Below, in pieces: positions 9,883 to 41,094 of a DNA stretch of 64,000 bases. A program made the position numbers and the translations under genes. Within the stretch, counting starts at the first letter, position 1. Each line of letters starts with the position of its first letter. Source of the DNA: Deltaproteobacteria bacterium (GTDB lineage Bacteria; UBA10199; GCA-002796325; JACPFF01); the NCBI GenBank assembly GCA_016183065.1, contig JACPFF010000017.1, positions 57,550 through 121,549 on the forward strand, in the 5' to 3' direction. Below the pieces are notes generated by a model that saw only the letters and a program-made list of their open reading frames with translations, searched no databases and was not told the origin of the DNA.

Positions 9883-10116
9883 ATGCCGATGCGACCGAAC
9901 CGCTTACAATCCCAGTGGCAATATATCGAGCGGAAACTGTGTGAGCACTATCCGCGGGTCCCGCGGTCGCTCTGGCGGGCCACGGAGGGGGAACACGAAC
10001 GGATCGTCAGGGTGATCCGGGATACCTATGTGCCGGGCCGCTCCGCCATCACCGTGGAGGCCGAAATTCGCGATCGGCTCAACGAGTGGGTCGCCGAGAT
10101 TGAAGCCCATGTGTGA
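9883..10116 (+). CDS. Small hypothetical protein (77 aa), translationally coupled to downstream slt (ATGTGA overlap)
   Basis: AAGGGAG RBS about 6 nt upstream. Charged helical composition. Stop overlaps the slt start. Confidence 0.4.
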   Translation: MPMRPNRLQSQWQYIERKLCEHYPRVPRSLWRATEGEHERIVRVIRDTYVPGRSAITVEAEIRDRLNEWVAEIEAHV

Positions 10117-12055
10117 ACAATCCGTGCGCCGCTGGTTTTTGTCTCTGACCTTTGCGCTCTGCGCCTGTTCGCATGGCATGTCCCCAACGAAACACCGTGT
10201 ACAAAAAATTTCTGCCGAGGTCCTCGCGACGTTGCATCAACTCGATACGCGGTGGCGTGCCTATGCACCGCATCAACGGGCCTTTATTACCGGGCATACC
10301 CATCTCCTTCGCGGGGAGTATGCCTCGGCACTGCCGTATCTCGAAACAGCGCTCACGAGCTATCCGCAACTGAAAGAGGATATTCTCTACGATATCGCGC
10401 AGAGTGCGCTGCGCAGCGGGGCGCTGACGCGGGCGACATCCGCCGTGTCGGCATTGCTGGGCGAGTTTCCTGAAAGCCGCTGGAGCGCGCCCGCACGCGA
10501 TCTGCAGGTCGAGCTGGCCATGGCCCGTCGCGATTGGGATGGTGCCGCGGCACTGTTGCAGGCCGAACTGGCGATGGCCAGGGATCGCTGGCGGCAGCGC
10601 ACGCTGCGCGAGCAATTGGCGCACCTGGCCGTGGCCCGCGGTGATTCTTCGGCGGCGTCGCAGGCGTATTTTGCCCTCTATACGAGCGCTGAATATCCCG
10701 ACGAGGCACAGCGGGCGCGGGAGGGATTGACCCTGGGGGCGAAAGCGGGCGGTGAAGATCCTGTGCGCCACCTGGATACCGGGGCCCGGCAGGCGTTGGC
10801 GGAACGGTTTCTCCAGCGCGGCCTGGCCGCAGAGGCCGTCGAGGTCTTGCATCCGTTGCGACACGTGCCGTCCTTGTTACTTGCCCGGGCCTATTTTCGA
10901 GCCCGTCGATATGTCGAGGCGGCGGACCTCTATGAGACCTTGTGGAAGCGCGACGGGAGTCTCTCGACGCTGCAGCTCTATGCCACTGCGAGTGCGCGGG
11001 GAGAGCGCACCGACCGGGCCATTGCCTTGCAGCAGGAGATCGCCGAACAGTCGAGTGGCGCCACGCGCCTGCAGGCCCGTGCCAAAGAGGCCTTTCTCTT
11101 TTTAGATAGTGGCCGGTATCGTGAGGCGGCGGAAAAATATCGCCAGTGGGTGGAGAGCGCGCGGCCCGCCAGACTGTCGATCGACCAGCAGTGTGGCGCC
11201 TGGTGGGCGATCGCATGGAGCGAGTATCGGCAGCAGCACTGGCAGGCCGCGCTCGAGGCATTTGATCATCTCACGGCGATTGCGACGGCGCGGGACCGCC
11301 AGTGGCATGCGCGCGTGGCCTATTGGCGGGGGCGCGTACTGGATGCCGCGGGGCAACGAGGGCCCGCGCGGACTGCATGGAAGGCGCTCGCACGGACGGC
11401 GGCCGGGACCTATTATGGCACCCTGGCCGCGGCCCGTGTGAAAGGACGCAAAGGCGTCGAGACCCTTTTCCGGCACCAGTCCCCTGCGGTGCACGATATG
11501 GGCCCGATGGAGGTCATGGGAGATACCACGTCTGCACAGGTTCGCGAGCTCGATGCCTTGGGGCTGTGGGATGCGGCCATCGAAGCGTTTGATCACCAGG
11601 TGCGTCCGGTCCAGTTTCGTCCGCATCATCAGCAGGCCATTGCTCGGCTCGGCGCACTGTGGGGGATCGATCCGGCACTCGTGGAACGGCTCATTTGGCA
11701 GGAGTCGGCGAATCGTCCGTTGGTCGTGTCACCGGCAGGGGCGATCGGGTTGATGCAGTTGATCCCCACGACAGCCTACGCGATGGCCCGTGAATTGCGG
11801 CAAGAGCCCTTCCGCGTCGAGGCCCTCTTCCGTCCGCTCCCGAATCTGCAATTGGGGATGTGGTATCTCCGCACACTCCTCACGCGGTATGATGGAGCCT
11901 TGCCGTATGTCCTGGCCAGTTACAACGCCGGGGAGGCGGCCGTCGATCGCTGGCGCCGCACTCGCACCGGTCACGATCTGGAAGAGTTTATCGAGACCAT
12001 TCCGTATCGCGAGACGCGGCAGTATGTCATGCGCATCCTGCAGCAATATTGGTAA
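10109..12055 (+). CDS. slt: Soluble lytic murein transglycosylase (Slt family) with N-terminal superhelical/TPR-like domain, lipoprotein signal
   Basis: SLT-domain motifs GLMQLIPTTA and YNAGEAAVDRW. Lipobox LTFALCAC from the ATG at 10109. Confidence 0.8.
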   Translation: MCEQSVRRWFLSLTFALCACSHGMSPTKHRVQKISAEVLATLHQLDTRWRAYAPHQRAFITGHTHLLRGEYASALPYLETALTSYPQLKEDILYDIAQSALRSGALTRATSAVSALLGEFPESRWSAPARDLQVELAMARRDWDGAAALLQAELAMARDRWRQRTLREQLAHLAVARGDSSAASQAYFALYTSAEYPDEAQRAREGLTLGAKAGGEDPVRHLDTGARQALAERFLQRGLAAEAVEVLHPLRHVPSLLLARAYFRARRYVEAADLYETLWKRDGSLSTLQLYATASARGERTDRAIALQQEIAEQSSGATRLQARAKEAFLFLDSGRYREAAEKYRQWVESARPARLSIDQQCGAWWAIAWSEYRQQHWQAALEAFDHLTAIATARDRQWHARVAYWRGRVLDAAGQRGPARTAWKALARTAAGTYYGTLAAARVKGRKGVETLFRHQSPAVHDMGPMEVMGDTTSAQVRELDALGLWDAAIEAFDHQVRPVQFRPHHQQAIARLGALWGIDPALVERLIWQESANRPLVVSPAGAIGLMQLIPTTAYAMARELRQEPFRVEALFRPLPNLQLGMWYLRTLLTRYDGALPYVLASYNAGEAAVDRWRRTRTGHDLEEFIETIPYRETRQYVMRILQQYW

Positions 12056-12084
12056 GGGCCGGTTCGACCCGTGTTCGCCGGAGA

Positions 12085-12116
12085 GATTCCCACGGACAAG
12101 CCCGTGGGAATCTTTC
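12085..12116 (+). terminator. Rho-independent terminator-like hairpin downstream of slt
   Basis: GATTCCCACGG-acaag-CCGTGGGAATC 11-bp stem followed by TTTCA. Confidence 0.5.
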
Positions 12117-12185: not shown

Positions 12186-12250
12186 GTACCATAAGTATTT
12201 CTAACGTTTAATGAGCACGTTTGTGCTCGTTAAACGTTGAAATACTATAG
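12186..12250. repeat. AT-rich 65-nt imperfect palindrome (long hairpin), copy 1 of 2
   Basis: AGTATTTCTAACGTTTAATGAGCAC-gttt-GTGCTCGTTAAACGTTGAAATACT. About 90% identical to the reverse complement of 32519-32583. Confidence 0.7.
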
Positions 12251-12276
12251 CGGTGCACTGGCTCAAGGGAGGTCCC

Positions 12277-12897
12277 ATGCCGTTTTTGCCCAAATCGTTC
12301 GATTTTTATTCCGGCTTTGAACAGCTCAGCACGAAGATGACCGAGGCGGCAGAAGAGTTGATCGTCCTCTTGCGCAACGGGACGGTCAATGGCGAGCAGC
12401 ATGTGAAACAGCTCAAGACCATTGAAAATGAGGCGGACCACATTGCCCACGAGGCCCTGGAACGGCTCAACAAGACCTTCATCACCCCGCTCGATCGCGA
12501 GGATATCCACGGTCTGGTCACAGCGCTCGACGATGTGGTCGATCTGATCTTTGCCTGCGGGGGGCGTTTCCTGATCTATCGGCCAAATTATCTCCATCCA
12601 GCCGTGATCCCCATGGCGGAATTCATCCGCAATGCGACGAAGGAGATCTATAATGCCATCCACGGAATGCGCAATACGAGTCATCGGCGTCAGGTCTTGA
12701 CGCATTGCATTGAGGTGAATCGCATTGAAAATAGCGCGGACGACCAGGTGCGCGAGGGATTGAAAGATCTGTTTGCCAATGAAAAGGACCCGATCGAATT
12801 GATCAAGATCAAGGAAGTCCTCGAAATGCTCGAAGAGACGAACGACGCGTGTGAAGATGTTGCCCATCGCATTGAGGGGATTGTGCTGAAGAATTAA
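12277..12897 (+). CDS. DUF47 family protein (PhoU-like phosphate-transport-regulator-related, TIGR00153-like)
   Basis: GGGAGG RBS 7 nt before ATG 12277. Characteristic DUF47 N-terminus PFLPKSFDFYSGFEQL. Confidence 0.65.
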   Translation: MPFLPKSFDFYSGFEQLSTKMTEAAEELIVLLRNGTVNGEQHVKQLKTIENEADHIAHEALERLNKTFITPLDREDIHGLVTALDDVVDLIFACGGRFLIYRPNYLHPAVIPMAEFIRNATKEIYNAIHGMRNTSHRRQVLTHCIEVNRIENSADDQVREGLKDLFANEKDPIELIKIKEVLEMLEETNDACEDVAHRIEGIVLKN

Positions 12898-12909
12898 CAG
12901 GCTGTCCGG

Positions 12910-14067
12910 TTACACCTTCGCATGGGGGTCGAACAGGCGGCGGTGTTCGTCGAAGGCGAAGCGATCGGTCATGCCGGCGATGTAATCGCAGATGTGCCGT
13001 TCTTTTTGCTGATCGGCGACAATCCGTTCATAGAATTCTCTCGGGAGCATCCGGGCATTGTTCTGAAAGGCGTAAAAAAGGTCTTCGATGGTCCGCTTCG
13101 CTTTTTCGGCCATGCGCACCACGCGATAATGGCGATAGAGGTGCTCGAAGAGGAACTGTTTTAAGGCCGTCAGTTCTGCACTAAAGGGGGCACTGAACGC
13201 CGCAATTTGATCCCCACGCTCGCGGACATCGGCCACGGTCTGGATGGCATGTGCATTGAGACGCCGCTCTGTTTCCCGCAACATGTCCTCGATGCATTGT
13301 TTAATGAGCCGTCGCACGACCTGATGCCGGATGACCTTCGGGATTGCGGTCGGGAATTCCCGCCCCACGTCCTCGTAGCAGGTCTGCCAGAGTGACACGT
13401 GATCCAGGAGATCGTAGGTCAACATGCCCGACTGCAGCCCATCGTCGAGATCGTGATTGGTGTAGGCGATCTCGTCGGCAAGATTGACAATCTGTGATTC
13501 AAGGCTCGGATATCCCTGATAATCAAAATCAGGGATGCCCCGTGGTGCATCATATTCGCCGGCATGTTTGACGATCCCCTCAAGGACCTCAAAACTCAAG
13601 TTCAATCCTGTGTAATCGGGATATCGTTGCTCCAACAGGGTCACCACACGATAACTTTGATGGTTGTGCTCGAATCCATTGCAGTCGGCCATGAGTGCGT
13701 GCATGGCCTCTTCGCCGGCATGACCAAATGGTGTGTGCCCCAAATCATGGGAGAGCGCGATGGTTTCCGCGAGGTCTTCATTCAGTTGCAGTGAGCGACA
13801 AATGGCGCGCGAAATTTGTGCGACCTCGAGACTATGCGTGAGACGCGTGCGATAATAATCGCCCTCATGATTCACGAAGACCTGCGTCTTGTATTCCAGG
13901 CGTCGAAAGGCGCTCGAGTGGATGATGCGATCGCGATCACGCTGAAAGATCGTTCGATAGGGATCCTCGGGGGTGGCAATCTGTCGTCCGCGCGACTCGC
14001 AGGCCCGTGCGGCATAGGGGGCGAGGAGCGTGACCTCATGCCGCTCGAATTGTTCGCGGGTCAACAT
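12910..14067 (-). CDS. dgt: dGTP triphosphohydrolase-like HD-domain protein
   Basis: HD motifs HSLEVAQISR and SHDLGHTPFGHAGE. Typical dGTPase N-terminus. Confidence 0.8.
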   Translation of the reverse strand: MLTREQFERHEVTLLAPYAARACESRGRQIATPEDPYRTIFQRDRDRIIHSSAFRRLEYKTQVFVNHEGDYYRTRLTHSLEVAQISRAICRSLQLNEDLAETIALSHDLGHTPFGHAGEEAMHALMADCNGFEHNHQSYRVVTLLEQRYPDYTGLNLSFEVLEGIVKHAGEYDAPRGIPDFDYQGYPSLESQIVNLADEIAYTNHDLDDGLQSGMLTYDLLDHVSLWQTCYEDVGREFPTAIPKVIRHQVVRRLIKQCIEDMLRETERRLNAHAIQTVADVRERGDQIAAFSAPFSAELTALKQFLFEHLYRHYRVVRMAEKAKRTIEDLFYAFQNNARMLPREFYERIVADQQKERHICDYIAGMTDRFAFDEHRRLFDPHAKV

Positions 14068-14081
14068 CGTCTCTTCCCCGA

Positions 14082-14195
14082 CTATTGGAGGGGCTCACGT
14101 CGCCCCCTCCAGCGGCAAAGCCGCTGGAGCCTCCCCTTCAACGCCGCGATGCGGCTGGGTCGTGGGGCCCCACTCCCTTCCGATTGTCGCTATCG
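14082..14195. repeat. GC-rich multi-hairpin palindromic element, copy A (REP/RPE/MITE-like family)
   Basis: CTATTGGAGGGGCTCACGTCGCCCCCTCC / CTCCAGCGG-CAAAG-CCGCTGGAG / GTGGGGCCCCAC. Shares 5' end and hairpin architecture with copies at 19343 and 40954. Confidence 0.7.
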
Positions 14196-14945
14196 GATGC
14201 CCCATGCCTTGTGCATCTGTCGTCCGATCTTACTCCCGGGGAGCCATTGTTGGCAATGCCGGAGGAAATCGACCATCTGTGGTTCTGCGGGAGATGCCGA
14301 GTGCGACGGGGTCTCCGAGCAATATTGCAAATAGGTGGGGAGTGTCGGATCGCTTGATGCAATCATCTGTGCCGCGATTGCGAGGTCTTCCATCGTGCTC
14401 TTCGCATCGAGCACAATTTTGATATACGCCGCGACGTGACTGGTATGGAGAGTCTCCAGAAAGGCGCGATGCTGGGACCAGTAGGCGCGCATGCCCGTGG
14501 ACGAGGGGAGCTTGATATCCATGCTGACCAGATGGACCCATGGGAGGACCCGTTGCAGTGGTTGCGCGAGGACGCCCGAGGTTTCCAGGAGATACTGTTT
14601 TCCGACCGGACCATTGGGGAGCCAGCGCTCAAGGAAGGCGGCCTGTTCCAGCGGTTCGCCACCGGTCAGTGCGATCCACTCGGCTGGATAGGAGTGGAGC
14701 ATGGCCGTCAGTGCAGTCGCCGTGAAAGGGTTGGGATAGGCGTCCCGCGCATCGCCACCCGCTGGCAGACTCACCTGACAGGTGTCGATGTGGTGCGAGA
14801 GGGCATTCGGTGTATCGCACCAGCGACAGCGGAGCGCACACCCCTGAAAACGGACAAAGGTCATCGGCGTGCCGGTCAAGGGCCCTTCGCCCTGCAGCGA
14901 GGGAAAGACTTCATGGAGGATGGCCGTATGGTCCATGGGCATCAC
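14190..14945 (-). CDS. queE: 7-carboxy-7-deazaguanine synthase (radical SAM)
   Basis: Radical-SAM FVRFQGCALRCRWCDT motif and QueE-like N-terminus. Confidence 0.8.
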   Translation of the reverse strand: MMPMDHTAILHEVFPSLQGEGPLTGTPMTFVRFQGCALRCRWCDTPNALSHHIDTCQVSLPAGGDARDAYPNPFTATALTAMLHSYPAEWIALTGGEPLEQAAFLERWLPNGPVGKQYLLETSGVLAQPLQRVLPWVHLVSMDIKLPSSTGMRAYWSQHRAFLETLHTSHVAAYIKIVLDAKSTMEDLAIAAQMIASSDPTLPTYLQYCSETPSHSASPAEPQMVDFLRHCQQWLPGSKIGRQMHKAWGIR

Positions 14946-15138: not shown

Positions 15139-17298
15139 TCATCCCAAGAACCATTCAGTGGCGCGATACGTCAGGAAGGCCGCCCCATAGGCCAATATCG
15201 TCATGTACCCAAACGTGAGCCAGGCATATTGCCAGGAGTTTGTCTCGCGCCGGATAGTGGCCACGGTGGCGCCGCACTGGCAGCAGAGGGCAAAAAAGAC
15301 CATAATGGAGAGCGCAACCGGGATCGAAAAGACCAGTCGACCATCGGGCCAGTGGGCCGTGCGCAACGCACTCTGCAGGCCGGCGGATGTTTCATCCACG
15401 GCATCGCCCAGATTGTAGATCGTCCCCAGCACCGCAATAATCACCTCGCGAGCGGGAAAAGAGGCCAAGGTCGCCATGCCAATGCGCCAATCCCATCCCA
15501 ATGGTTTTACCACAGGTTCAATCCACTGGCCGAGGTGGCCCATGGCGCTTGCCCGGAGATAGGCGCCCGCCTCTTCACGGTCGATGCGGGCCAACTCGGC
15601 CGCCGCCTCTGCAGGATGATGCAGGACCGCTGTGGCAACCCGTTGGCCGGCATATTTCTGCGCAATCCCCGCCGGTCGCGGGAAATACGACAGTGCCCAC
15701 ACCACGATCGTCATGGCAAAGATGATAGTGCCGGCACGCCGCACAAAGGCCATGCCTCGCTCATAGACGCGATGCCCCACGAGTGACAGCGAGGGCCACT
15801 TGTAGGGCGGGAGCTCCATGACAAACGCCGGGGTCGCCGCACGAAAGAGCGTCCGTTTCAGGAGCCAGATCACGGGAATCGCCACGAAGAGGCCGATGGA
15901 ATAGGCAGCGAAGAGGACGATTCCCTGCAATCCCAACCATCCGCCGAGATACGCGTGGGCGGGAATAAAGGCGGCGATGAGGATCGTATAGACCGGTAAT
16001 CGCGCGGAACAGCTCATGAGCGGGGCCACCATGATGGTCACGAGCCGGTCACGCCGGTCTTCAATCGTCCGCGTCGCCATGATGCCGGGGATGGCGCAGG
16101 CAAAACTCGAGAGGAGTGGAATGAAAGATTTGCCCGAGAGCCCGAGGCGCGAGAGCAACCGATCCATCAGGAAGGCCGCGCGGGCCATGTATCCGCAGTC
16201 TTCCATGATTGCGATAAAGAGAAAGAGGAAAAGAATCTGGGGGAGAAAAACCAGGACACTCCCGACGCCGCCGATGATGCCATCGACAATGAGGCTGCGC
16301 AGGGCCCCTCTTGGGAGATAGGCGCCGATAGTGGTTCCGAGGGTGCCGAAGAGCCAGTCGATACAATCCATAAGCGGGCCGGCCCAGGCGTAAATCGATT
16401 GAAAGACGAGAATCGTTACCATGGAGAACGTGAGGGTCCCCCATATTTTATGGGTCAACACCGCATCGAGGCGATCGCTCCAGCTCTTGGTGCGTACGGC
16501 TGGTGTTGCGACGACATCCCGCAAGAGTTGGCGAATCCACGTGTAGCGACTGGACGCCTCGATGGCTGCCAGCGATGTGCCGTTGGCGGCCGTGCGGCGC
16601 CATTCGGCCAGACGGTCGGCACACTCTGGACAACGCTGGAGATACCGCTGCGCCGCATAGCCTTCTGTATCGACCAACACCCGCAGGGCCTCGACCGCGG
16701 AAAGCTCTGCCGTCTCGGCAACCGCGGCCTGCGCCGTTGCCAGTGCCGCAGGCAATGTCAGCGGGGTCACTGGCGGAGTCGGCAGGGGGGGAGGCAACTG
16801 GCAGAGCACCTGGAGGACGTCCCGGATTCCCTCGCCCGTGCGGGCACAGGTCTCCACAACCGGGACGCCGAGCCGTGCACTGAGACGCCGCACGTCGATC
16901 CGGATCCCGCTTTTGCGGGCGGCATCGATCATGTTGAGGACGACCAGTATCGGGAGACCGCACTCGAGGATCTGCGAGAGGAGATAGCAATTGCGCTGCA
17001 GATTGGTGGCATCGAGGATGACAATGACGCCGTCAATCGGCGCGCTGCCGGACTGCTGCCCCAGGAGGAGATCGACCGCGATCATTTCATCCGGAGATTG
17101 GGCGGCAAGGCTGTAGGTCCCCGGCAGATCGATCAGTTCAATGGCACTTCCCTGGAGCGGGATCGTCCCCGATTTGCGTTCCACCGTGACCCCGGGATAA
17201 TTGCCGACGCGCTGTCGCAGCCCGGTCAGGGCATTGAAGAGTGTCGTCTTTCCGGTATTGGGATTGCCGATGAGGGCAATCGTTTTCTGCAGACTCAT
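15139..17298 (-). CDS. feoB: Ferrous iron transporter FeoB (G-protein domain plus membrane permease)
   Basis: GNPNTGKTTLFNALTG P-loop. Long polytopic C-terminal domain. ATGA overlap with upstream feoA. Confidence 0.9.
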   Translation of the reverse strand: MSLQKTIALIGNPNTGKTTLFNALTGLRQRVGNYPGVTVERKSGTIPLQGSAIELIDLPGTYSLAAQSPDEMIAVDLLLGQQSGSAPIDGVIVILDATNLQRNCYLLSQILECGLPILVVLNMIDAARKSGIRIDVRRLSARLGVPVVETCARTGEGIRDVLQVLCQLPPPLPTPPVTPLTLPAALATAQAAVAETAELSAVEALRVLVDTEGYAAQRYLQRCPECADRLAEWRRTAANGTSLAAIEASSRYTWIRQLLRDVVATPAVRTKSWSDRLDAVLTHKIWGTLTFSMVTILVFQSIYAWAGPLMDCIDWLFGTLGTTIGAYLPRGALRSLIVDGIIGGVGSVLVFLPQILFLFLFIAIMEDCGYMARAAFLMDRLLSRLGLSGKSFIPLLSSFACAIPGIMATRTIEDRRDRLVTIMVAPLMSCSARLPVYTILIAAFIPAHAYLGGWLGLQGIVLFAAYSIGLFVAIPVIWLLKRTLFRAATPAFVMELPPYKWPSLSLVGHRVYERGMAFVRRAGTIIFAMTIVVWALSYFPRPAGIAQKYAGQRVATAVLHHPAEAAAELARIDREEAGAYLRASAMGHLGQWIEPVVKPLGWDWRIGMATLASFPAREVIIAVLGTIYNLGDAVDETSAGLQSALRTAHWPDGRLVFSIPVALSIMVFFALCCQCGATVATIRRETNSWQYAWLTFGYMTILAYGAAFLTYRATEWFLG

Positions 17299-18896: not shown

Positions 18897-19265
18897 ATTT
18901 CCATTGGTCATTTTGCGGGGCCTTGCTATCTCCTCTGTCCCATGGACCGGTTTGCTGTTGATGACCGTCGATTCGCGCACTGTTTTGCGGCGCAGCCCTA
19001 TCGACAATCTCCCTCGGGATTTGCGGCCCTGCGCAGTGCGGCGATTCTGGCCTGGTACCGCACTCTCCTGAGATGTGGTGCGTCATCAGAACTGCGGCAA
19101 CTGGCGGAGCACGTGCGTTGTGCGGTTGCCAGGGGGACGCTGGCGTGGAACTGCGGCAATGGGGCGCGGGTGTTGCGGTTTTTTTCGCGTCACCGCTGGC
19201 TGCAACGTCGATGGGCCCTCGGCCTGCAACAGCGACAGGTTGGGACGCAGGAGGGAGAGCCGATC

Positions 19266-19835
19266 ATGACGGTCGGGCAGATGACTCCGACCGCCCGCAT
19301 CGATAAGCCGTGGGGTTGGGAGCTCATTGGTCCGATTGTGCGCCCTGCTATTGGAGGGGCTCACGTCGCCCCCCCAACGGGCAAAGCCCGTTGGGTCCCC
19401 CCCTCTCGCGCGCGGTGCGCGCTGGGGGACTTCCTCGTCCACCCGCTTCGCGGGTGCCCGGACTCGGTCGCCGCCACAGACATGGCGACCGATGCTGGAT
19501 ACACCTATAAAATGTTGCTCATTGTCGGGCCGCTTTCGCGTCAAGTCCACACGCCGTATCACGACGCGACCGGGACGGCACACGGCGCAAAGGTCGAGAC
19601 GCAGATGTGCCTCGGGCCCGATCCCTATCTGATCCGGACCGCGGATGCGCTCTATCGGATCTGGCCCGGCGAGGCCTTTCACATCCCGGAGGGGCTATGG
19701 CATCAACCGACGGTGCTCCCTGGCGCGGCATCGTTTGTCGAAGAGGTCTCGACCCCCAATATCGGCCCTGGCAGCACCACGCGAGACCCGGACGGCGACC
19801 CGTGGGCGACCCAGCGGAGTCCGGGTGATCAATAG
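19266..19835 (+). CDS. Cupin-domain protein (ManC-type small cupin, KPWGWELI motif) carrying an in-frame insertion of palindromic element copy B
   Basis: GGAGGGA RBS before ATG 19266. KPWGWELIG is followed directly by about 50 codons translated from the repeat element, then the cupin sequence resumes at GYTYKMLLIVGP ... FHIPEGLWHQ. Confidence 0.5.
   Translation: MTVGQMTPTARIDKPWGWELIGPIVRPAIGGAHVAPPTGKARWVPPSRARCALGDFLVHPLRGCPDSVAATDMATDAGYTYKMLLIVGPLSRQVHTPYHDATGTAHGAKVETQMCLGPDPYLIRTADALYRIWPGEAFHIPEGLWHQPTVLPGAASFVEEVSTPNIGPGSTTRDPDGDPWATQRSPGDQ
19343..19492. mobile_element. GC-rich multi-hairpin palindromic element, copy B, inserted in-frame (about 150 nt) within the cupin gene
   Basis: CTATTGGAGGGGCTCACGTCGCCCCCCC / CCCAACGGG-CAAAG-CCCGTTGGG / GCGCGC-ggt-GCGCGC / CACCCGC-ttc-GCGGGTG hairpins. 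Confidence 0.65.
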
Positions 19836-19959: not shown

Positions 19960-21348
19960 ATGCCGAAGGCCAAAATTCTGGATCAACCCTTCCTTCTTGA
20001 AACACTGCTGAAATTCCTGTCGAGCCGGGGACCAACGAAGGCGAAGGACTTGTGTGCATGGCTCAAGATCAGCCAGCCCGCTTTCTCACGCCTTGTTGCA
20101 CGAGGGAAAGACGCGATTCTCCGTATGGGGCATGGCCCACATACGGAGTATGCGTGCAGGAGGATTGGGGGTTGGGGTGCATCGAGGATTCCCCTCTTTG
20201 CCATTGATGAGGAGGGGATTTTACGTCGTGTCGCCACCATACATCCCATTGCGCCTCAAGGCATTTACCTTGAGGCCGAAAGTGAAAACTTTCGTACCAA
20301 AACTTATCCCAATCTTCCGTACTTCCTTGAAGACTTGCGCCCATCAGGATTTTTGGGACGACTGGTGCCGCGACTCTATCCAGATCTCGGTTTTCCAGAC
20401 GATATTGCGCGGTGGACCGATGACGATTGCCTTGTCTATCTGACGCATTGTGGATGGAATCTCGTGGGAAATTATATTCTGGGGGAAAAAGCGTACGATG
20501 CGTATGTGAAAGCCGACATCACGCGATTGAATGTGGTCGAGGACCCTGATCGTGCAACGTGCTACCCGCAGATTGCCGCGCTGGTGTTGTCGCAAGGTCT
20601 TCCGGGGTCCTCTGCTGCAGGAGAACAACCAAAATTCCTTGCGATCCGGAAGACCCAAGACGGATGCGTGCCCGTGCTTGTGAAATTTTCACCCCCCATT
20701 CTCGATACCCTCAGCCAACGCGTTGCCGACCTGTTGATTTGCGAGCATATCGCGCATTCAGTCTTGAGAAGGCATGGCAAAACCGCTTCACAATCTTGCC
20801 TGATCAGGGGAGGGGAGCGTCTTTTTTTGGAGATCGAACGTTTTGACCGCGCTCGTCTTGGGGGGCGCCGGGGCGTCATCTCGCTCCACGCCCTGGACCT
20901 CGAGTTTGTTGGCCAACACCGCTCGTGGGCGGAGACGGCCGAGGCGTTATGGCATCAAAAAAAGATTGATTATGAGGCCTACGAGACGATCGTTTGGCTC
21001 GACGTCTTTGGGAAGTTGATCGGCAACTCGGATCGGCATCACGGCAACATCGCCTTTTTCTGCACCGGCGAAATCATCGGCGGCTTGGCGCCAACGTACG
21101 ACATGTTGCCCATGATGTATGCGCCGCAACACCACCAGTTGGTCGAGAAGTCTTTTGACCCCGCTCCCCCGAGATTTTTTGAACGCGCGGTCTGGGACGA
21201 CGCTGTCGCCGCTGCCAGGGACTATTGGATCCAAGTGCAGGCGCATGCAGAGCTCTCCGATCTGTTTCGCACAGTAGCGGCCAATCATGCGGCAACACTC
21301 ACAAAGACTCTGTCATTTTCCCTTGGCACTCCGCAAGGGAGCCGCTAG
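19960..21348 (+). CDS. HipA-like kinase with fused N-terminal HTH domain (YjjJ/HipH-like)
   Basis: N-terminal LKISQPAFSRLVA HTH resembling YjjJ. C-terminal LIGNSDRHHGNIAFF HipA catalytic motif. 120-nt AT-rich promoter region upstream. Confidence 0.7.
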   Translation: MPKAKILDQPFLLETLLKFLSSRGPTKAKDLCAWLKISQPAFSRLVARGKDAILRMGHGPHTEYACRRIGGWGASRIPLFAIDEEGILRRVATIHPIAPQGIYLEAESENFRTKTYPNLPYFLEDLRPSGFLGRLVPRLYPDLGFPDDIARWTDDDCLVYLTHCGWNLVGNYILGEKAYDAYVKADITRLNVVEDPDRATCYPQIAALVLSQGLPGSSAAGEQPKFLAIRKTQDGCVPVLVKFSPPILDTLSQRVADLLICEHIAHSVLRRHGKTASQSCLIRGGERLFLEIERFDRARLGGRRGVISLHALDLEFVGQHRSWAETAEALWHQKKIDYEAYETIVWLDVFGKLIGNSDRHHGNIAFFCTGEIIGGLAPTYDMLPMMYAPQHHQLVEKSFDPAPPRFFERAVWDDAVAAARDYWIQVQAHAELSDLFRTVAANHAATLTKTLSFSLGTPQGSR

Positions 21349-21357
21349 AAGCCGCGC

Positions 21358-22599
21358 ATGTCGTCGTTTCGAGTTCTCCATACCAGTGCTGAGACGGCCG
21401 GGCGCCTTGGGGAACTCACCACGGCCCGCGGGTGCATTGAGACGCCGGTCTTTATGCCGGTCGGGACGCAGGCGACCGTGAAGGCGATGACGCCGGACGA
21501 GCTGCAATCGCTCGGTGTCCGGATCATCCTCGGCAACACCTATCATCTCATGCTCCGTCCCGGGCACGAATTGATCCGGGCACACGGGGGACTCCACGAC
21601 TTCATGCAGTGGCATGGGCCGATTCTGACGGATAGTGGTGGATACCAGATCTTCAGTCTCGGGCGGGTGGCCGGAGAGCGCCGGGCGACGACGCAGTCGG
21701 CGGGGTGCCGGGGGAGCGGGGCGGCAACACCGTCGGCGGGTCGACGTCGTGGAGAGGCGATCAACGCGATCCCCATCGCCGTCGATCTCTCCGAAGAGGG
21801 CGTCCGCTTCACGTCGTCGCTCGATGGCGGCCAGGACCATTTCTTGACCCCGGAATCGGCCATTGCCATCCAGGAGGCGCTGGGGAGCGACATCATGATG
21901 GTCCTCGACGAGTGTCTGGCCTATCCCGCGACAAAAGCTGCGGCGCGGACCTCCATGGAGCTGTCGTTGCGATGGGCCACGCGAGGTTTGCGGGCGCGGA
22001 CCCGACCGGAGCGGCTTCTGTTCGGCATCATCCAGGGGGGGATCTATCCCGCCTTGCGAAAGGAATATGTCGAGAGACTCTTATCCGTGGAGTGCGCGTC
22101 GTCGCGTTTCGATGGCCTGGCCATTGGCGGGCTCTCCGTGGGCGAGCCGAGCGAACTCCTCTATGCAATGACTGCCGGCACGGCCGCACATCTCCCGGCG
22201 GAGCGCCCCCGCTATTTGATGGGCGTTGGCACGCCGGAAGACCTCCTGACCTGCATTGATGCCGGGATCGACATGTTCGATTGTGTCCTGCCAACGCGGA
22301 GCGCGCGGACCGGCCGGCTCTATACCCGCCGCGGCGATCTCAACATCATGAACAGTCGCTTTGCCACCGAGCGTACGCCGCTCGACAGCGCGTGCGCATG
22401 TCCGACGTGCCAGCGCTATTCGCGGGCTTATCTCCATCACCTTGCGAAATCACACGAGATTCTCGGTGCACGCCTCAATACACTTCATAATTTACATTTC
22501 TATATGCGTCTGCTAGAGGGCGCCCGTCAGGCGTTGCGGGGCGGATACTATCCTCGATACCGAATGGACGTCATCGAGCACCGGAAGGAAGGGGTCTAA
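21358..22599 (+). CDS. tgt: Queuine tRNA-ribosyltransferase (tRNA-guanine transglycosylase) with about 35-aa Arg/Gly/Ala-rich insertion
   Basis: Tgt motifs IETPVFMPVGTQATVK, LGNTYHLMLRPG, LDECLAYP, zinc site CxCxxC...H (CACPTCQRYSRAYLHH). Insertion between YQIFSLG and EEGVRF. Confidence 0.85.
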   Translation: MSSFRVLHTSAETAGRLGELTTARGCIETPVFMPVGTQATVKAMTPDELQSLGVRIILGNTYHLMLRPGHELIRAHGGLHDFMQWHGPILTDSGGYQIFSLGRVAGERRATTQSAGCRGSGAATPSAGRRRGEAINAIPIAVDLSEEGVRFTSSLDGGQDHFLTPESAIAIQEALGSDIMMVLDECLAYPATKAAARTSMELSLRWATRGLRARTRPERLLFGIIQGGIYPALRKEYVERLLSVECASSRFDGLAIGGLSVGEPSELLYAMTAGTAAHLPAERPRYLMGVGTPEDLLTCIDAGIDMFDCVLPTRSARTGRLYTRRGDLNIMNSRFATERTPLDSACACPTCQRYSRAYLHHLAKSHEILGARLNTLHNLHFYMRLLEGARQALRGGYYPRYRMDVIEHRKEGV

Positions 22600-40902: not shown

Positions 40903-40953
40903 TCCGAAAATTATAGCAAAGAATGGGCAACTTGTAGAGCAATTTTGCCGATA

Positions 40954-41094
40954 CTATTACAGGGGCTCGCGTCGCCCCCTCCACCGGCAAAGCCGGTGGA
41001 GCCTCCCCCTCACGCTCGCCGTGCTCGCTGGATCGCTTCCCACGGGCGACGCGAGCTGCTGAGGACCACGCGTTTGCCCGTGGGAAGCTATGCA
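40954..41094. repeat. GC-rich multi-hairpin palindromic element, copy C, in divergent intergenic region
   Basis: CTATTACAGGGGCTCGCGTCGCCCCCTCC / CTCCACCGG-CAAAG-CCGGTGGAG / TTCCCACGGGC...GCCCGTGGGAA. Confidence 0.7.

What the first reader, a model, noticed from the sequence alone, without database searches (positions are those of the whole stretch)
14082..14195. Family of GC-rich multi-hairpin palindromic elements (at least 3 copies in 64 kb) with compensatory base changes in stems: REP/RPE/MITE-like
Three copies (14082-14195, 19343-19492, 40954-41094) share the 5' terminus CTATT(G/A)(G/C)AGGGGCTC(A/G)CGTCGCCCCC and the same architecture. Hairpin 1 is GGAGGGGC...GCCCCTCC. Hairpin 2 is a 9-bp stem around an invariant CAAAG loop. 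One or two further hairpins vary between copies (GTGGGGCCCCAC, GCGCGC-ggt-GCGCGC, CACCCGC-ttc-GCGGGTG, TTCCCACGGGC...GCCCGTGGGAA). Hairpin 2 differs at 4 of 9 stem positions between copies, yet every change is mirrored on the other arm: A CTCCAGCGG/CCGCTGGAG, B CCCAACGGG/CCCGTTGGG, C CTCCACCGG/CCGGTGGAG. This covariation shows selection on structure, as a DNA hairpin recognised by a transposase or as a structured RNA, rather than on primary sequence. Three copies per 64 kb implies a genome-wide population in the hundreds. Copy A lies in the dgt 5' leader overlapping the queE 3' end, copy B is inside a gene, and copy C is in a divergent promoter region.
Basis: seen in the sequence. Interest (0 to 1): 0.85.

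Follow-up and report, generated by a model that had tools for sequence, protein, structure and literature searches.

The report
Mobile GC-rich hairpin repeat family
The three look-alike stretches are copies of a small, undescribed mobile DNA repeat made of several hairpins; it is scattered through Nitrospirota and deltaproteobacterial genomes, sits mostly just upstream of gene starts and sometimes in frame inside genes, and is a new example of the familiar REP/RPE-type "junk" repeats.

Summary
The window holds exactly three copies, all on the + strand, of an ~80-nt core: CTATTnn-AGGGGCTCRCGTCGCCCCC (hairpin 1), a 9-bp hairpin 2 with a CAAAG loop, CCTCCCCCTC, then hairpin 4 ending in GCTGG. Variable 3' hairpin modules follow.

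Pattern and covariance-model searches found over 225 further copies in Nitrospirota, Syntrophorhabdus, Syntrophus/Smithella and other "delta" MAGs, and one in a phage contig. Hairpin 2 covaries strongly (97.7% paired; 80 double changes versus 10.6 in shuffles).

Related genomes show filled and empty sites, and one 5'UTR carries independent insertions in both orientations. I saw no target duplication and no terminal inverted repeats. So this is a mobile, non-autonomous element.

It usually fills the spacer between a stop codon and the next ribosome-binding site (median 18 nt from the start codon). Its G-rich strand is the sense strand in 36 of 45 co-directional spacers. In-frame copies persist inside DabA, MoaB, a phage capsid gene and the gene holding window copy B. 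Downstream genes are unrelated housekeeping genes, so it is not a riboswitch.

Rfam and the literature gave no match. No transposase was found, so the proposed HUH/RAYT-like single-strand mobilisation is inference. Verdict: a new member of a known kind, of moderate interest.

The parts
14082..14158 (+). Copy A, conserved core. 5' motif CTATTGG 14082-14088; hairpin 1 GGGGC 14090-14094 / GCCCC 14102-14106; hairpin 2 14107-14129; C-rich linker 14130-14139; hairpin 4 GCCGC 14143-14147 / GCGGC 14151-14155; GCTGG ends at 14158.
   Evidence: CM hit 14081-14168, 77.2 bits; coordinates. It lies between the dgt start codon (14067, - strand) and the queE stop (14190), with the G-rich strand as the sense strand.
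14159..14195 (+). Copy A, copy-specific 3' tail with the GTGGGGCCCCAC palindrome (14162-14173). Whether it belongs to the element is uncertain. The last 6 nt overlap the queE stop region.
   Evidence: Not shared with copies B or C. GTGGGGCCCCAC is absent from the 109 loci held at that point.
19348..19425 (+). Copy B, conserved core. Hairpin 1 19356-19372; hairpin 2 19373-19395; linker 19396-19405; hairpin 4 GCGCGC/GCGCGC 19408-19422.
   Evidence: CM hit 19347-19435, 85.2 bits; coordinates.
19426..19492 (+). Copy B, extra 3' modules: CCACCCGC-ttc-GCGGGTG hairpin (19439-19456, a module also seen in Syntrophorhabdus copies) and a terminal 9-bp hairpin (19464-19492).
   Evidence: The same module occurs in L015, L043 and L060.
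19362..19490 (+). The 43-codon block of ORF 18942-19835 (protein P0001) that five homologues lack: an in-frame insertion in the loop after DKPWGWELI. The exact DNA junction is ambiguous (129-150 nt).
40954..41031 (+). Copy C, conserved core. Hairpin 1 40962-40978; hairpin 2 40979-41001; linker 41002-41011; imperfect hairpin 4 GCTCGC-cgt-GCTCGC 41014-41028.
   Evidence: CM hit 40953-41041, 100.4 bits. 96% identical over 72 nt to the Nitrospirota copy in L035.
41035..41088 (+). Copy C, long 3' hairpin module (m5): GCTTCCCACGGGC ... GCCCGTGGGAAGC. This module recurs next to cores in Syntrophorhabdus and Nitrospirota, where it often has GTAGAT...ATCTAC ends.
12084..12113 (.). Solo short copy of the m5 hairpin: AGATTCCCACGG-acaagc-CCGTGGGAATCT, a 12-bp perfect stem about 30 nt after the stop of gene 10028-12055 (+).

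Best explanation
The three loci are copies of a dispersed, non-autonomous mobile element built from GC-rich hairpin modules. It is a REP/BIME-like mosaic that also behaves like Rickettsia RPEs.

Structure. The conserved unit is about 80-90 nt. It has a short A/T-rich 5' motif (CTAT[T/C]A[A/T]), hairpin 1 (GGGGC-TNRCGTC-GCCCC), hairpin 2 (9 bp, variable sequence), a C-rich single-stranded linker (CCTCCCCCTC) and hairpin 4. Further hairpin modules can be appended or nested inside its stems and loops: a 50-60-nt m5 hairpin, a CCACCCGC/GCGGGT hairpin and a 29-nt mini-hairpin.

Shown:
- Copies are inserted and lost at orthologous sites.
- They insert in either orientation.
- They leave no target duplication and have no terminal inverted repeats.
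- They occur in several phyla and in a phage contig.

Inferred:
- The element moves as folded single-stranded DNA, cut and pasted by a trans-acting HUH-type (RAYT or IS200-like) or other structure-recognising enzyme encoded elsewhere in the genome.
- The conserved hairpin 1 loop and the C-rich linker are the recognition sites.
- The arms of hairpin 2 need only pair with each other, which explains the compensatory changes.

Where copies survive. They persist where they do little harm: spacers between a stop codon and the next ribosome-binding site, 5'UTRs and promoter-upstream DNA. When their length is a multiple of three and free of stops, they also persist in surface loops of proteins.

Orientation bias. 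In 80% of co-directional spacers the G-rich strand is the mRNA strand. The likely reason is that the opposite orientation would put CCUCC anti-Shine-Dalgarno runs next to the downstream ribosome-binding site. The G-rich RNA also folds better, using G-U and tandem G-A pairs, and may act as an mRNA-end protecting hairpin as REPs do. This last step is inference.
For: Family and spread:
- The CM finds 119 + 106 copies.
- Carriers include the isolate Syntrophorhabdus aromaticivorans UI, a Manganitrophaceae chromosome and many Nitrospirota MAGs, plus phage contig L109.

Structure:
- 97.7% of cells are paired. There are 80 double-change cells against 10.6 in shuffles (0 of 500 reach the observed value). 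Slid controls are 45-59% paired.
- Hairpin 4 also swaps whole arm pairs: GCCGC/GCGGC, GGCCC/GGGCC, GCTCAC/GTGAGC and others.

Mobility:
- L005, L066 and L083 (78-82% identical flanks) show three filled/empty sites. One 5'UTR is empty in one genome, filled forward in a second and filled in reverse in a third.
- L105/L049 and L007/L052 are further filled/empty pairs.
- A 29-nt hairpin is nested in L001 but absent from the 93-95% identical L179, and is nested at another position in L074.
- No TSD is seen at these junctions. The 5' flank shows a preference (C at -7 in 61%, T at -4 in 82%).

Context:
- The 5' end faces a gene start 61 times and a gene end 26 times.
- In co-directional spacers the reverse complement is the sense strand 36 times against 9 (p = 7e-5). 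The bias replicates in an independent metagenome sample.
- The median distance to the start codon is 18 nt.
- Downstream genes are diverse: GspD, IF-2, PilT, PPDK, HPRT, NDK, CoaBC, NuoF and others.

Intragenic in-frame copies:
- Window copy B.
- DabA in 5 contigs.
- A MoaC-MoaB fusion and a phage capsid gene.

Strand asymmetry:
- A.C 52 against G.T 16 in hairpin 2.
- The reverse-complement RNA is the more stable strand in 105 of 107 copies.
Against: - No transposase of any kind is linked to the element in 1.45 Mb of loci plus the window. The only find is one truncated IS200-like fragment, not flanked by copies. The mobilisation mechanism is therefore unproven.
- Exact ends are not resolved, because the closest filled/empty pairs are only about 80% identical. 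A 1-3-nt duplication cannot be excluded.
- The orthologous DabA copies are about 6% diverged against about 22% for their flanks, and some copies persist across genera. This fits purifying selection or gene conversion better than pure junk.
- The strand-stability test is confounded by the G-richness of the reverse-complement strand, and the A.C excess is partly one inherited variant.
- Gene calls behind the orientation statistics are crude longest-ORF calls.
- Some cross-phylum assignments rest on MAG binning.
Confidence: 0.8

Rival explanations
1. The element is maintained mainly as a host-beneficial RNA module. Transcribed on the G-rich strand between genes of an operon, its hairpins would protect the upstream mRNA 3' end, or insulate or boost the downstream ribosome-binding site. 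Mobility would be only how it spread. This is not exclusive with the best explanation.
For: - 80% sense bias of the G-rich strand, replicated in two samples.
- The element sits 18 nt upstream of start codons.
- G-U-compatible mismatches favour that strand.
- The imperfect GCTCGC/GCTCGC hairpin 4 becomes a tandem G-A motif on that strand (sequence plus nearest-neighbour knowledge).
- Orthologous copies are more conserved than their flanks.
Against: - About 20-30% of copies are in the other orientation. Copies also lie upstream of promoters (copy C) and inside coding regions in both orientations.
- Copies decay by deletion.
- No expression data are available.
- There are no terminator-like features.
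Confidence: 0.3
2. It is a miniature derivative (PATE-like) of an IS200/IS605-family insertion sequence. The conserved end would be a former IS end, possibly retaining a TnpB/IscB guide-RNA-like scaffold.
For: - No TSD and no TIR, a subterminal hairpin, and a conserved short motif flanking one end.
- Multi-hairpin architecture at one conserved end, with the other end variable.
Against: - No full-length parent IS, tnpA or tnpB next to any of about 230 copies.
- No Rfam hit.
- Orientation in the window (all three forward on the G-rich, gene-rich strand) is opposite to the majority skew relation in other loci. A simple lagging-strand-template rule is therefore not supported.
Confidence: 0.1
3. 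It is a classical DDE-transposase MITE, like Correia, ERIC or Nezha.
For: Size (80-150 nt), high copy number, intergenic location and strong secondary structure.
Against: The two ends are unrelated, so there are no terminal inverted repeats. No target-site duplication is seen in four or more filled/empty comparisons.
Confidence: 0.04
4. It is a gene-specific cis-regulatory RNA (riboswitch or leader), or merely a local duplication within this window.
For: Covarying hairpins lie just upstream of start codons.
Against: - Downstream genes are functionally unrelated.
- Copies occur inside ORFs and in both orientations.
- Insertion polymorphism exists.
- Hundreds of copies occur in other phyla.
- No Rfam family matches.
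Confidence: 0.02

Closest known systems
REP sequences and BIMEs (bacterial interspersed mosaic elements) of Enterobacteria and Pseudomonas, including REPINs mobilised by RAYT
   Same: Short GC-rich imperfect palindromes in high copy number, mostly between co-directional or convergent genes and co-transcribed. They form mosaics of different hairpin units, have no TIR or TSD, and show compensatory arm changes. The m5 module often carries GTAG...CTAC ends, like a REP doublet.
   Different: The conserved core is a fixed string of three different hairpins plus a C-rich linker (~80 nt), not a 20-40-nt single palindrome. The core has no GTAG tag. No RAYT was found. The element sits next to the downstream gene's ribosome-binding site rather than simply after the upstream gene. 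The same sequence occurs across phyla.
Rickettsia palindromic elements (RPE)
   Same: 100-150-nt palindromic repeats without TIR or TSD. They lie in intergenic DNA and also in frame inside protein-coding genes, where they add a peptide loop and persist through speciation.
   Different: Unrelated hosts (free-living Nitrospirota and Desulfobacterota rather than obligate intracellular alpha-proteobacteria). Sequence similarity was not tested here. This family has a modular, nested build and a strong position and orientation bias relative to gene starts.
CGTC-tagged REP superfamily (Di Nocera et al. 2013, PMC3733652; includes Neisseria dRS3 and RPE-4/-6)
   Same: A conserved CGTC lies 5' of a 9-bp stem with a 5-nt loop and a C-rich tail. 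As with CGTC REPs, there is no dedicated transposase. Intragenic copies are known for both.
   Different: Here CGTC lies inside the loop of hairpin 1 and is separated from hairpin 2 by GCCCCC. The stem does not begin with the two A-T pairs typical of CGTC REPs. The unit is much longer.
BOX elements of Streptococcus pneumoniae; Correia/ERIC MITEs
   Same: Modular (boxA-boxB-boxC-like), structured and intergenic. They are often close to gene starts and able to alter expression of neighbours.
   Different: BOX, Correia and ERIC have inverted terminal repeats, and Correia makes a TA duplication. None of these features is present here.

Membership tests
REP / REPIN (RAYT-associated) | Unpaired GTAG tetranucleotide at one end of a 20-40-nt imperfect palindrome | tested here: not met
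   The core 5' flank consensus is CTAT(T/C)A(A/T), with no GTAG. Only the optional m5 module has GTAGAT...ATCTAC ends in many loci. In window copy C the m5 ends are GGATCGC...GCTAT.
REP / REPIN (RAYT-associated) | A RAYT (Y1 HUH transposase) gene in the genome, typically flanked by the repeats | tested here: inconclusive
   tblastn with remembered IS608, IS200 and E. coli RAYT sequences against the window plus 1.45 Mb of loci found one truncated IS200-like fragment (L188), not flanked by copies. Whole carrier genomes could not be scanned.
REP / BIME | High copy number, mainly extragenic, between co-directional or convergent genes; mosaic clusters | tested here: met
Tandem and mosaic arrays occur in L020, L010, L104 and L126.
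CGTC-tagged REPs (Di Nocera 2013) | Terminal unpaired CGTC directly abutting an 8-9-bp stem that starts with two A-T pairs; 4-5-nt loop; CCA tail | tested here: not met
   Definition taken. Here CGTC is in the hairpin 1 loop, 6 nt before hairpin 2. The hairpin 2 stem starts T-A, C-G. The loop CAAAG (5 nt) and the 9-bp stem do fit.
DDE-type MITE | Terminal inverted repeats | tested here: not met
   The 5' end (CTATTAT-AGGGGC) and the 3' ends (...GCTCGCTGG or ...GGGAATCTAC) are not complementary.
DDE-type MITE | Target-site duplication | tested here: not met
   Filled/empty pairs L005/L066 (3 sites), L105/L049, L007/L052 and L001/L179 show no direct repeat at the junctions. Flank divergence of about 20% leaves a 1-3-nt duplication unexcluded.
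RPE (Rickettsia palindromic elements) | In-frame insertion into ORFs, retained in orthologues | tested here: met
   Window copy B; DabA in L085, L058, L002, L189 and L196; a MoaC-MoaB fusion in L030; a phage capsid gene in L109. This is a match of behaviour only.
RPE (Rickettsia palindromic elements) | Sequence relatedness to RPE-1 to RPE-8 consensus sequences | not tested
IS200/IS605-derived PATE | Ends identical to those of a full-length IS carrying tnpA and/or tnpB; insertion 3' of a fixed tetra- or pentanucleotide; no TSD | tested here: inconclusive
   No TSD, and a conserved flank motif is present. No parent IS lies near any copy.
Any Rfam 15 RNA family | Covariance-model score at or above the gathering threshold | tested here: not met
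   Window and four loci at the gathering threshold: only a tRNA. Permissive scans of copies A and C gave only chance hairpin hits far below threshold.

The most novel reading that the evidence does not exclude
The family could represent an undescribed way of moving DNA. Hairpin modules of 29-90 nt nest into each other's stems and loops and into spacers next to ribosome-binding sites, without duplications. An enzyme that is not a RAYT would drive this. Phages would carry the modules between phyla. The modules are 'coding-competent', so they repeatedly add a fixed peptide (…EGEAP…EGATRAP…) to protein loops. Alternatively, the conserved core could be an orphan guide-RNA-like scaffold that is transcribed on the G-rich strand and has a cellular function.
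Probability: 0.12. Interest if true: 0.7.

Novelty: new member of a known kind. Interest (0 to 1): 0.4.

Why it matters
The element gives Nitrospirota and Syntrophorhabdus/Syntrophus genomes their own REP/RPE-like repeat family, and these groups include manganese oxidisers, nitrite oxidisers and syntrophs.

Practical points:
- It breaks short-read assemblies. A Logan contig ends inside copy A.
- It inflates ORF calls through its stop-free GC-rich sequence.
- It changes 5'UTRs, stop codons and protein loops of housekeeping genes.

Scientific points:
- Near-identical copies in different phyla and in a phage capsid gene make it a tracer of horizontal transfer.
- Because a cultured carrier exists (S. 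aromaticivorans UI), it is a tractable case for asking how transposase-less palindromic repeats (the CGTC-REP problem) are mobilised.
- It also allows a test of whether orientation relative to the ribosome-binding site is selected.

Tried and rejected
- Rfam, at gathering and at permissive thresholds: nothing.
- Literature search for the sequence, and for REP or MITE together with Nitrospira: nothing specific.
- Terminator reading: no U-tract and no terminator-like sites.
- Riboswitch or regulon reading: rejected because the downstream genes are diverse.
- Replication-strand rule: the element-forward strand is C-rich in 49 of 78 loci, but in the window all three copies are forward on the G-rich, gene-rich strand. 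This is not a clean rule and is confounded with transcription.
- Transposase hunt: tblastn with Y1 transposases, all-against-all ORF clustering, and inspection of truncated copies and inverted pairs. Only ABC, SDR and histidine-kinase clusters, a NadE false hit and one IS200 fragment turned up.
- Cupin idea for the gene around copy B: no Pfam hit, with or without the insert. It is an uncharacterised conserved family.
- The search for related loci with that family in metagenomes: nothing, so no same-species empty site for copy B.
- The look-up of encoding contigs for P0001: not on record.
- My flank-pair script for empty sites was swamped by tandem arrays and gave only a few usable pairs.
- Exact element ends and the copy B DNA junction remain ambiguous.

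Full report
**Observation.** The three stretches exist as described, all on the + strand. The shared 19-mer AGGGGCTCRCGTCGCCCCC occurs three times against 0.09 expected by chance. A three-way alignment shows that similarity runs from CTATT to GCTGG, about 78 nt, and then stops. A covariance model built from 76 copies and run without filters finds exactly these three in the window, at 100.4, 85.2 and 77.2 bits, and nothing else. Across the family, hairpin 1 is only GGGGC/GCCCC. The terminal hairpins of copies A and B are private to those copies. Each copy folds better than shuffled sequence, with z-scores of -2.0 to -4.3 on either strand.

**A large family in several phyla.**
- Scans with the 19-mer (genomes) and a 22-mer extension of it (metagenomes) returned more than 105 genome loci and more than 120 metagenome loci.
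- The model then found 119 and 106 copies in those loci.
- Carriers are mostly Nitrospirota MAGs (including a Manganitrophaceae chromosome and Troglogloeales), Syntrophorhabdus (including the isolate S. aromaticivorans UI), Syntrophus/Smithella and other 'Deltaproteobacteria' MAGs.
- Single MAGs gave 10-12 loci before the limit.
- The window itself belongs to an NCBI 'Deltaproteobacteria bacterium' MAG. It shares nothing but the element with the fetched loci.
- Copy C is 96% identical over 72 nt to a Nitrospirota copy.
- The three window copies belong to three different hairpin 4 subfamilies, each also present in other phyla.
- One good copy (76.6 bits) lies in an IMG/VR viral contig beside a lambda-type portal gene and a gpA terminase gene.
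- Rfam has no matching family. Literature searches found no description.

**Anatomy.**
- The consensus is (t)CTAT(T/C)A(A/T) - AGGGGC-T-N-R-CGTC-GCCCCC - TCCACCGG-CAAAG-CCGG(a)TGGAG - CCTCCCCCTC - TCGCTCGCcttGCTCGCTGG.
- Hairpin 2 covaries strongly. 97.7% of cells are paired. There are 80 cells with changes on both sides against 10.6 in shuffles (0 of 500 shuffles reach this). Slid-partner controls are 45-59% paired.
- Hairpin 4 exists as many fully complementary variants: GCCGC/GCGGC, GGCCC/GGGCC, GCTCAC/GTGAGC, GCGAC/GTCGC and GCGCGC/GCGCGC. In most Nitrospirota copies it is the imperfect GCTCGC/GCTCGC form.
- The hairpin 1 loop (CGTC) and the C-rich linker stay constant even in copies that were not selected by the seed.
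- Modules are appended or nested. These include a 50-60-nt hairpin (m5, often with GTAGAT...ATCTAC ends) and a CCACCCGC/GCGGGT hairpin. Extra hairpins can replace the hairpin 2 loop.
- A 29-nt hairpin is nested in hairpin 2 of L001 but absent from the 93-95% identical L179. The same module is nested in the hairpin 4 region of L074.
- The window also has a solo m5-type hairpin at 12084-12113.

**Mobility.**
- Related Nitrospirota MAGs (78-82% identical flanks) differ by presence or absence of the element at three sites.
- In one 5'UTR, between a TTGACA/TAGTAT promoter and the ribosome-binding site, one genome is empty, one carries the element forward and one carries it in reverse. These are independent insertions.
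- Further filled/empty pairs are L105/L049 and L007/L052.
- No junction shows a target duplication, and the element's two ends are not inverted repeats.
- In one case the insertion split a TGA stop codon and the junction recreated TAG.
- The 5' flank shows a preference (C at -7 in 61%, T at -4 in 82%; nothing beyond -8).
- In the reverse orientation, the flank next to CCAGCGAGC is ATCTAC, ATCGAC or TCTATC, and it pre-exists in the empty sites. Which of these motifs is target and which is element end could not be settled at this level of divergence.
- Copies also decay by deletion.

**Context.**
- With crude longest-ORF gene calls, the AGGGG end faces a gene start 61 times and a gene end 26 times.
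- In spacers between co-directional genes, the G-rich (reverse-complement) strand is the sense strand 36 times against 9 (p = 7e-5).
- The bias is present separately in the genome sample (20 against 6) and in the metagenome sample (16 against 3).
- The median distance from AGGGG to the start codon is 18 nt.
- Ten such downstream genes were checked with Pfam. They are real and unrelated: GspD, IF-2, PilT, PPDK, HPRT, NDK, NtrY, CoaBC, 3-hydroxyacyl-CoA dehydrogenase and NuoF. This rules out a gene-specific riboswitch.
- In the window, copy A fills the queE-dgt spacer with the G-rich strand as sense. Copy C lies 16 nt upstream of the -35 of a promoter-like site with a TG-extended -10, which would drive the DUF885 gene.

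**Copies inside genes.**
- Copy B lies in ORF 18942-19835. Five homologues (37-50% identical, no Pfam domain) lack a 43-aa block exactly there, in the loop after DKPWGWELI.
- The frame stays open, so the gene is probably still functional.
- The DNA junction is ambiguous (129-150 nt), because the element-encoded ...IGGA happens to resemble the native Gly/Ala-rich loop.
- Elsewhere the element is in frame, in the G-rich sense, in DabA in five contigs. One of these, L002, carries two tandem copies in the DabA ORF.
- It is also in frame in the MoaB domain of a MoaC-MoaB fusion and at the N-terminus of the phage capsid protein.
- In all of these it uses the same reading frame (…EGEAP…EGATRAP…). The DabA copy differs by about 6% between two genomes whose flanks differ by about 22%.

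**Which strand matters.**
- As RNA, the reverse-complement strand is more stable in 105 of 107 copies, but it is also the G-rich strand.
- A strand-neutral count in hairpin 2 gives 52 A.C against 16 G.T mismatches. On the reverse-complement strand these A.C mismatches read as G.U wobble pairs. Many of these are one inherited variant.
- The imperfect hairpin 4 reads 5'-GCGAGC/GCGAGC on that strand, a tandem G-A arrangement known to be stable.
- These points agree with the orientation bias. They cannot separate an RNA role from an active single DNA strand.

**Mechanism.** Shown: a dispersed, mobile, hairpin-built element without TIR or TSD. Inferred: movement as folded single-stranded DNA by a trans-acting HUH-type or other structure-specific enzyme. 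No such gene is linked to any copy in the window or in 1.45 Mb of loci. The searches turned up only a NadE false hit, common paralogue families and one truncated IS200-like fragment that is not flanked by copies. The orientation bias is best explained by selection. The forward orientation would place CCUCC runs next to the downstream Shine-Dalgarno sequence. The G-rich orientation gives stable hairpins of the kind that protect mRNA ends in REP-containing operons. This is inference.

**Comparison with known families.**
- The closest analogues are REP/BIME mosaics and Rickettsia RPEs.
- The CGTC-tagged REPs of Di Nocera et al. (PMC3733652) share a CGTC, a 9-bp stem, a 5-nt loop and the lack of a dedicated transposase. 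Their defining layout is not met here.
- The core also fails the GTAG-REP definition and the MITE definition.
- I therefore file it as a new member of the general kind 'small palindromic non-autonomous repeats', not as a member of any named family.

Noticed in passing
window 12084-12113: A solo 12-bp perfect hairpin, AGATTCCCACGG-acaagc-CCGTGGGAATCT, about 30 nt after the stop of gene 10028-12055.
   Followed up: partly
window 18942-19835 (P0001) and homologues P0002-P0006: A conserved protein family with no Pfam domain. Invariant motifs are DKPWGWE, GPLS.Q.H, KVETQ and NIGPGSTTRDP.GDPW. In L107 it sits next to a GalT-like gene. Function is unknown.
   Followed up: partly
L001 7463-7480 and L074 6426-6443: A 29-nt hairpin module, ATGTCTGCTGCGAAYCGCAGCATGCAGGC, found only twice in 229 loci. 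Both times it is nested inside the element, at different positions. It is absent from the near-identical orthologue L179.
   Followed up: partly
L109 (IMGVR_UViG_2721755143_000001) 1106-1193: A copy of the element lies in frame at codons ~8-30 of a phage capsid protein gene, downstream of a lambda-type portal gene and a gpA terminase gene. Phage is a possible vehicle for spread between hosts.
   Followed up: partly
L188 ~1560-1680: A truncated IS200/IS605-type TnpA fragment (…LYHIVCPAKYRRKVFTEAVENTLKE…) between an alpha/beta-hydrolase-like gene and a 4Fe-4S subunit gene. It is about 870 nt from an element copy and is not flanked by copies.
   Followed up: yes
window 40910-40938 (- strand): A promoter-like site (TCTACA, 17 nt, TG-TATAAT; 10 of 12 matches) ends 8 nt before the ATG of the DUF885 gene (40902). 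This suggests a leaderless or nearly leaderless transcript.
   Followed up: no
L106 (Logan SRR12113385 contig) = window 12195-14104: A public short-read contig that is 100% identical to the window ends inside hairpin 1 of copy A. This is the assembly break expected at a multi-copy repeat.
   Followed up: no
window 14190-14945, 21358-22599, 19960-21348: The queuosine-pathway genes queE and tgt lie 6 kb apart, with a HipA-like kinase gene directly upstream of tgt. FeoB (15139-17298) lies between queE and the copy B gene.
   Followed up: no
L020 2048-2313, L104 6132-6638, L126 5313-5680: Head-to-tail arrays of the element, with periods of 84, 209 and about 140 nt. Copy number differs between related genomes (L020 against L086).
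   Followed up: partly
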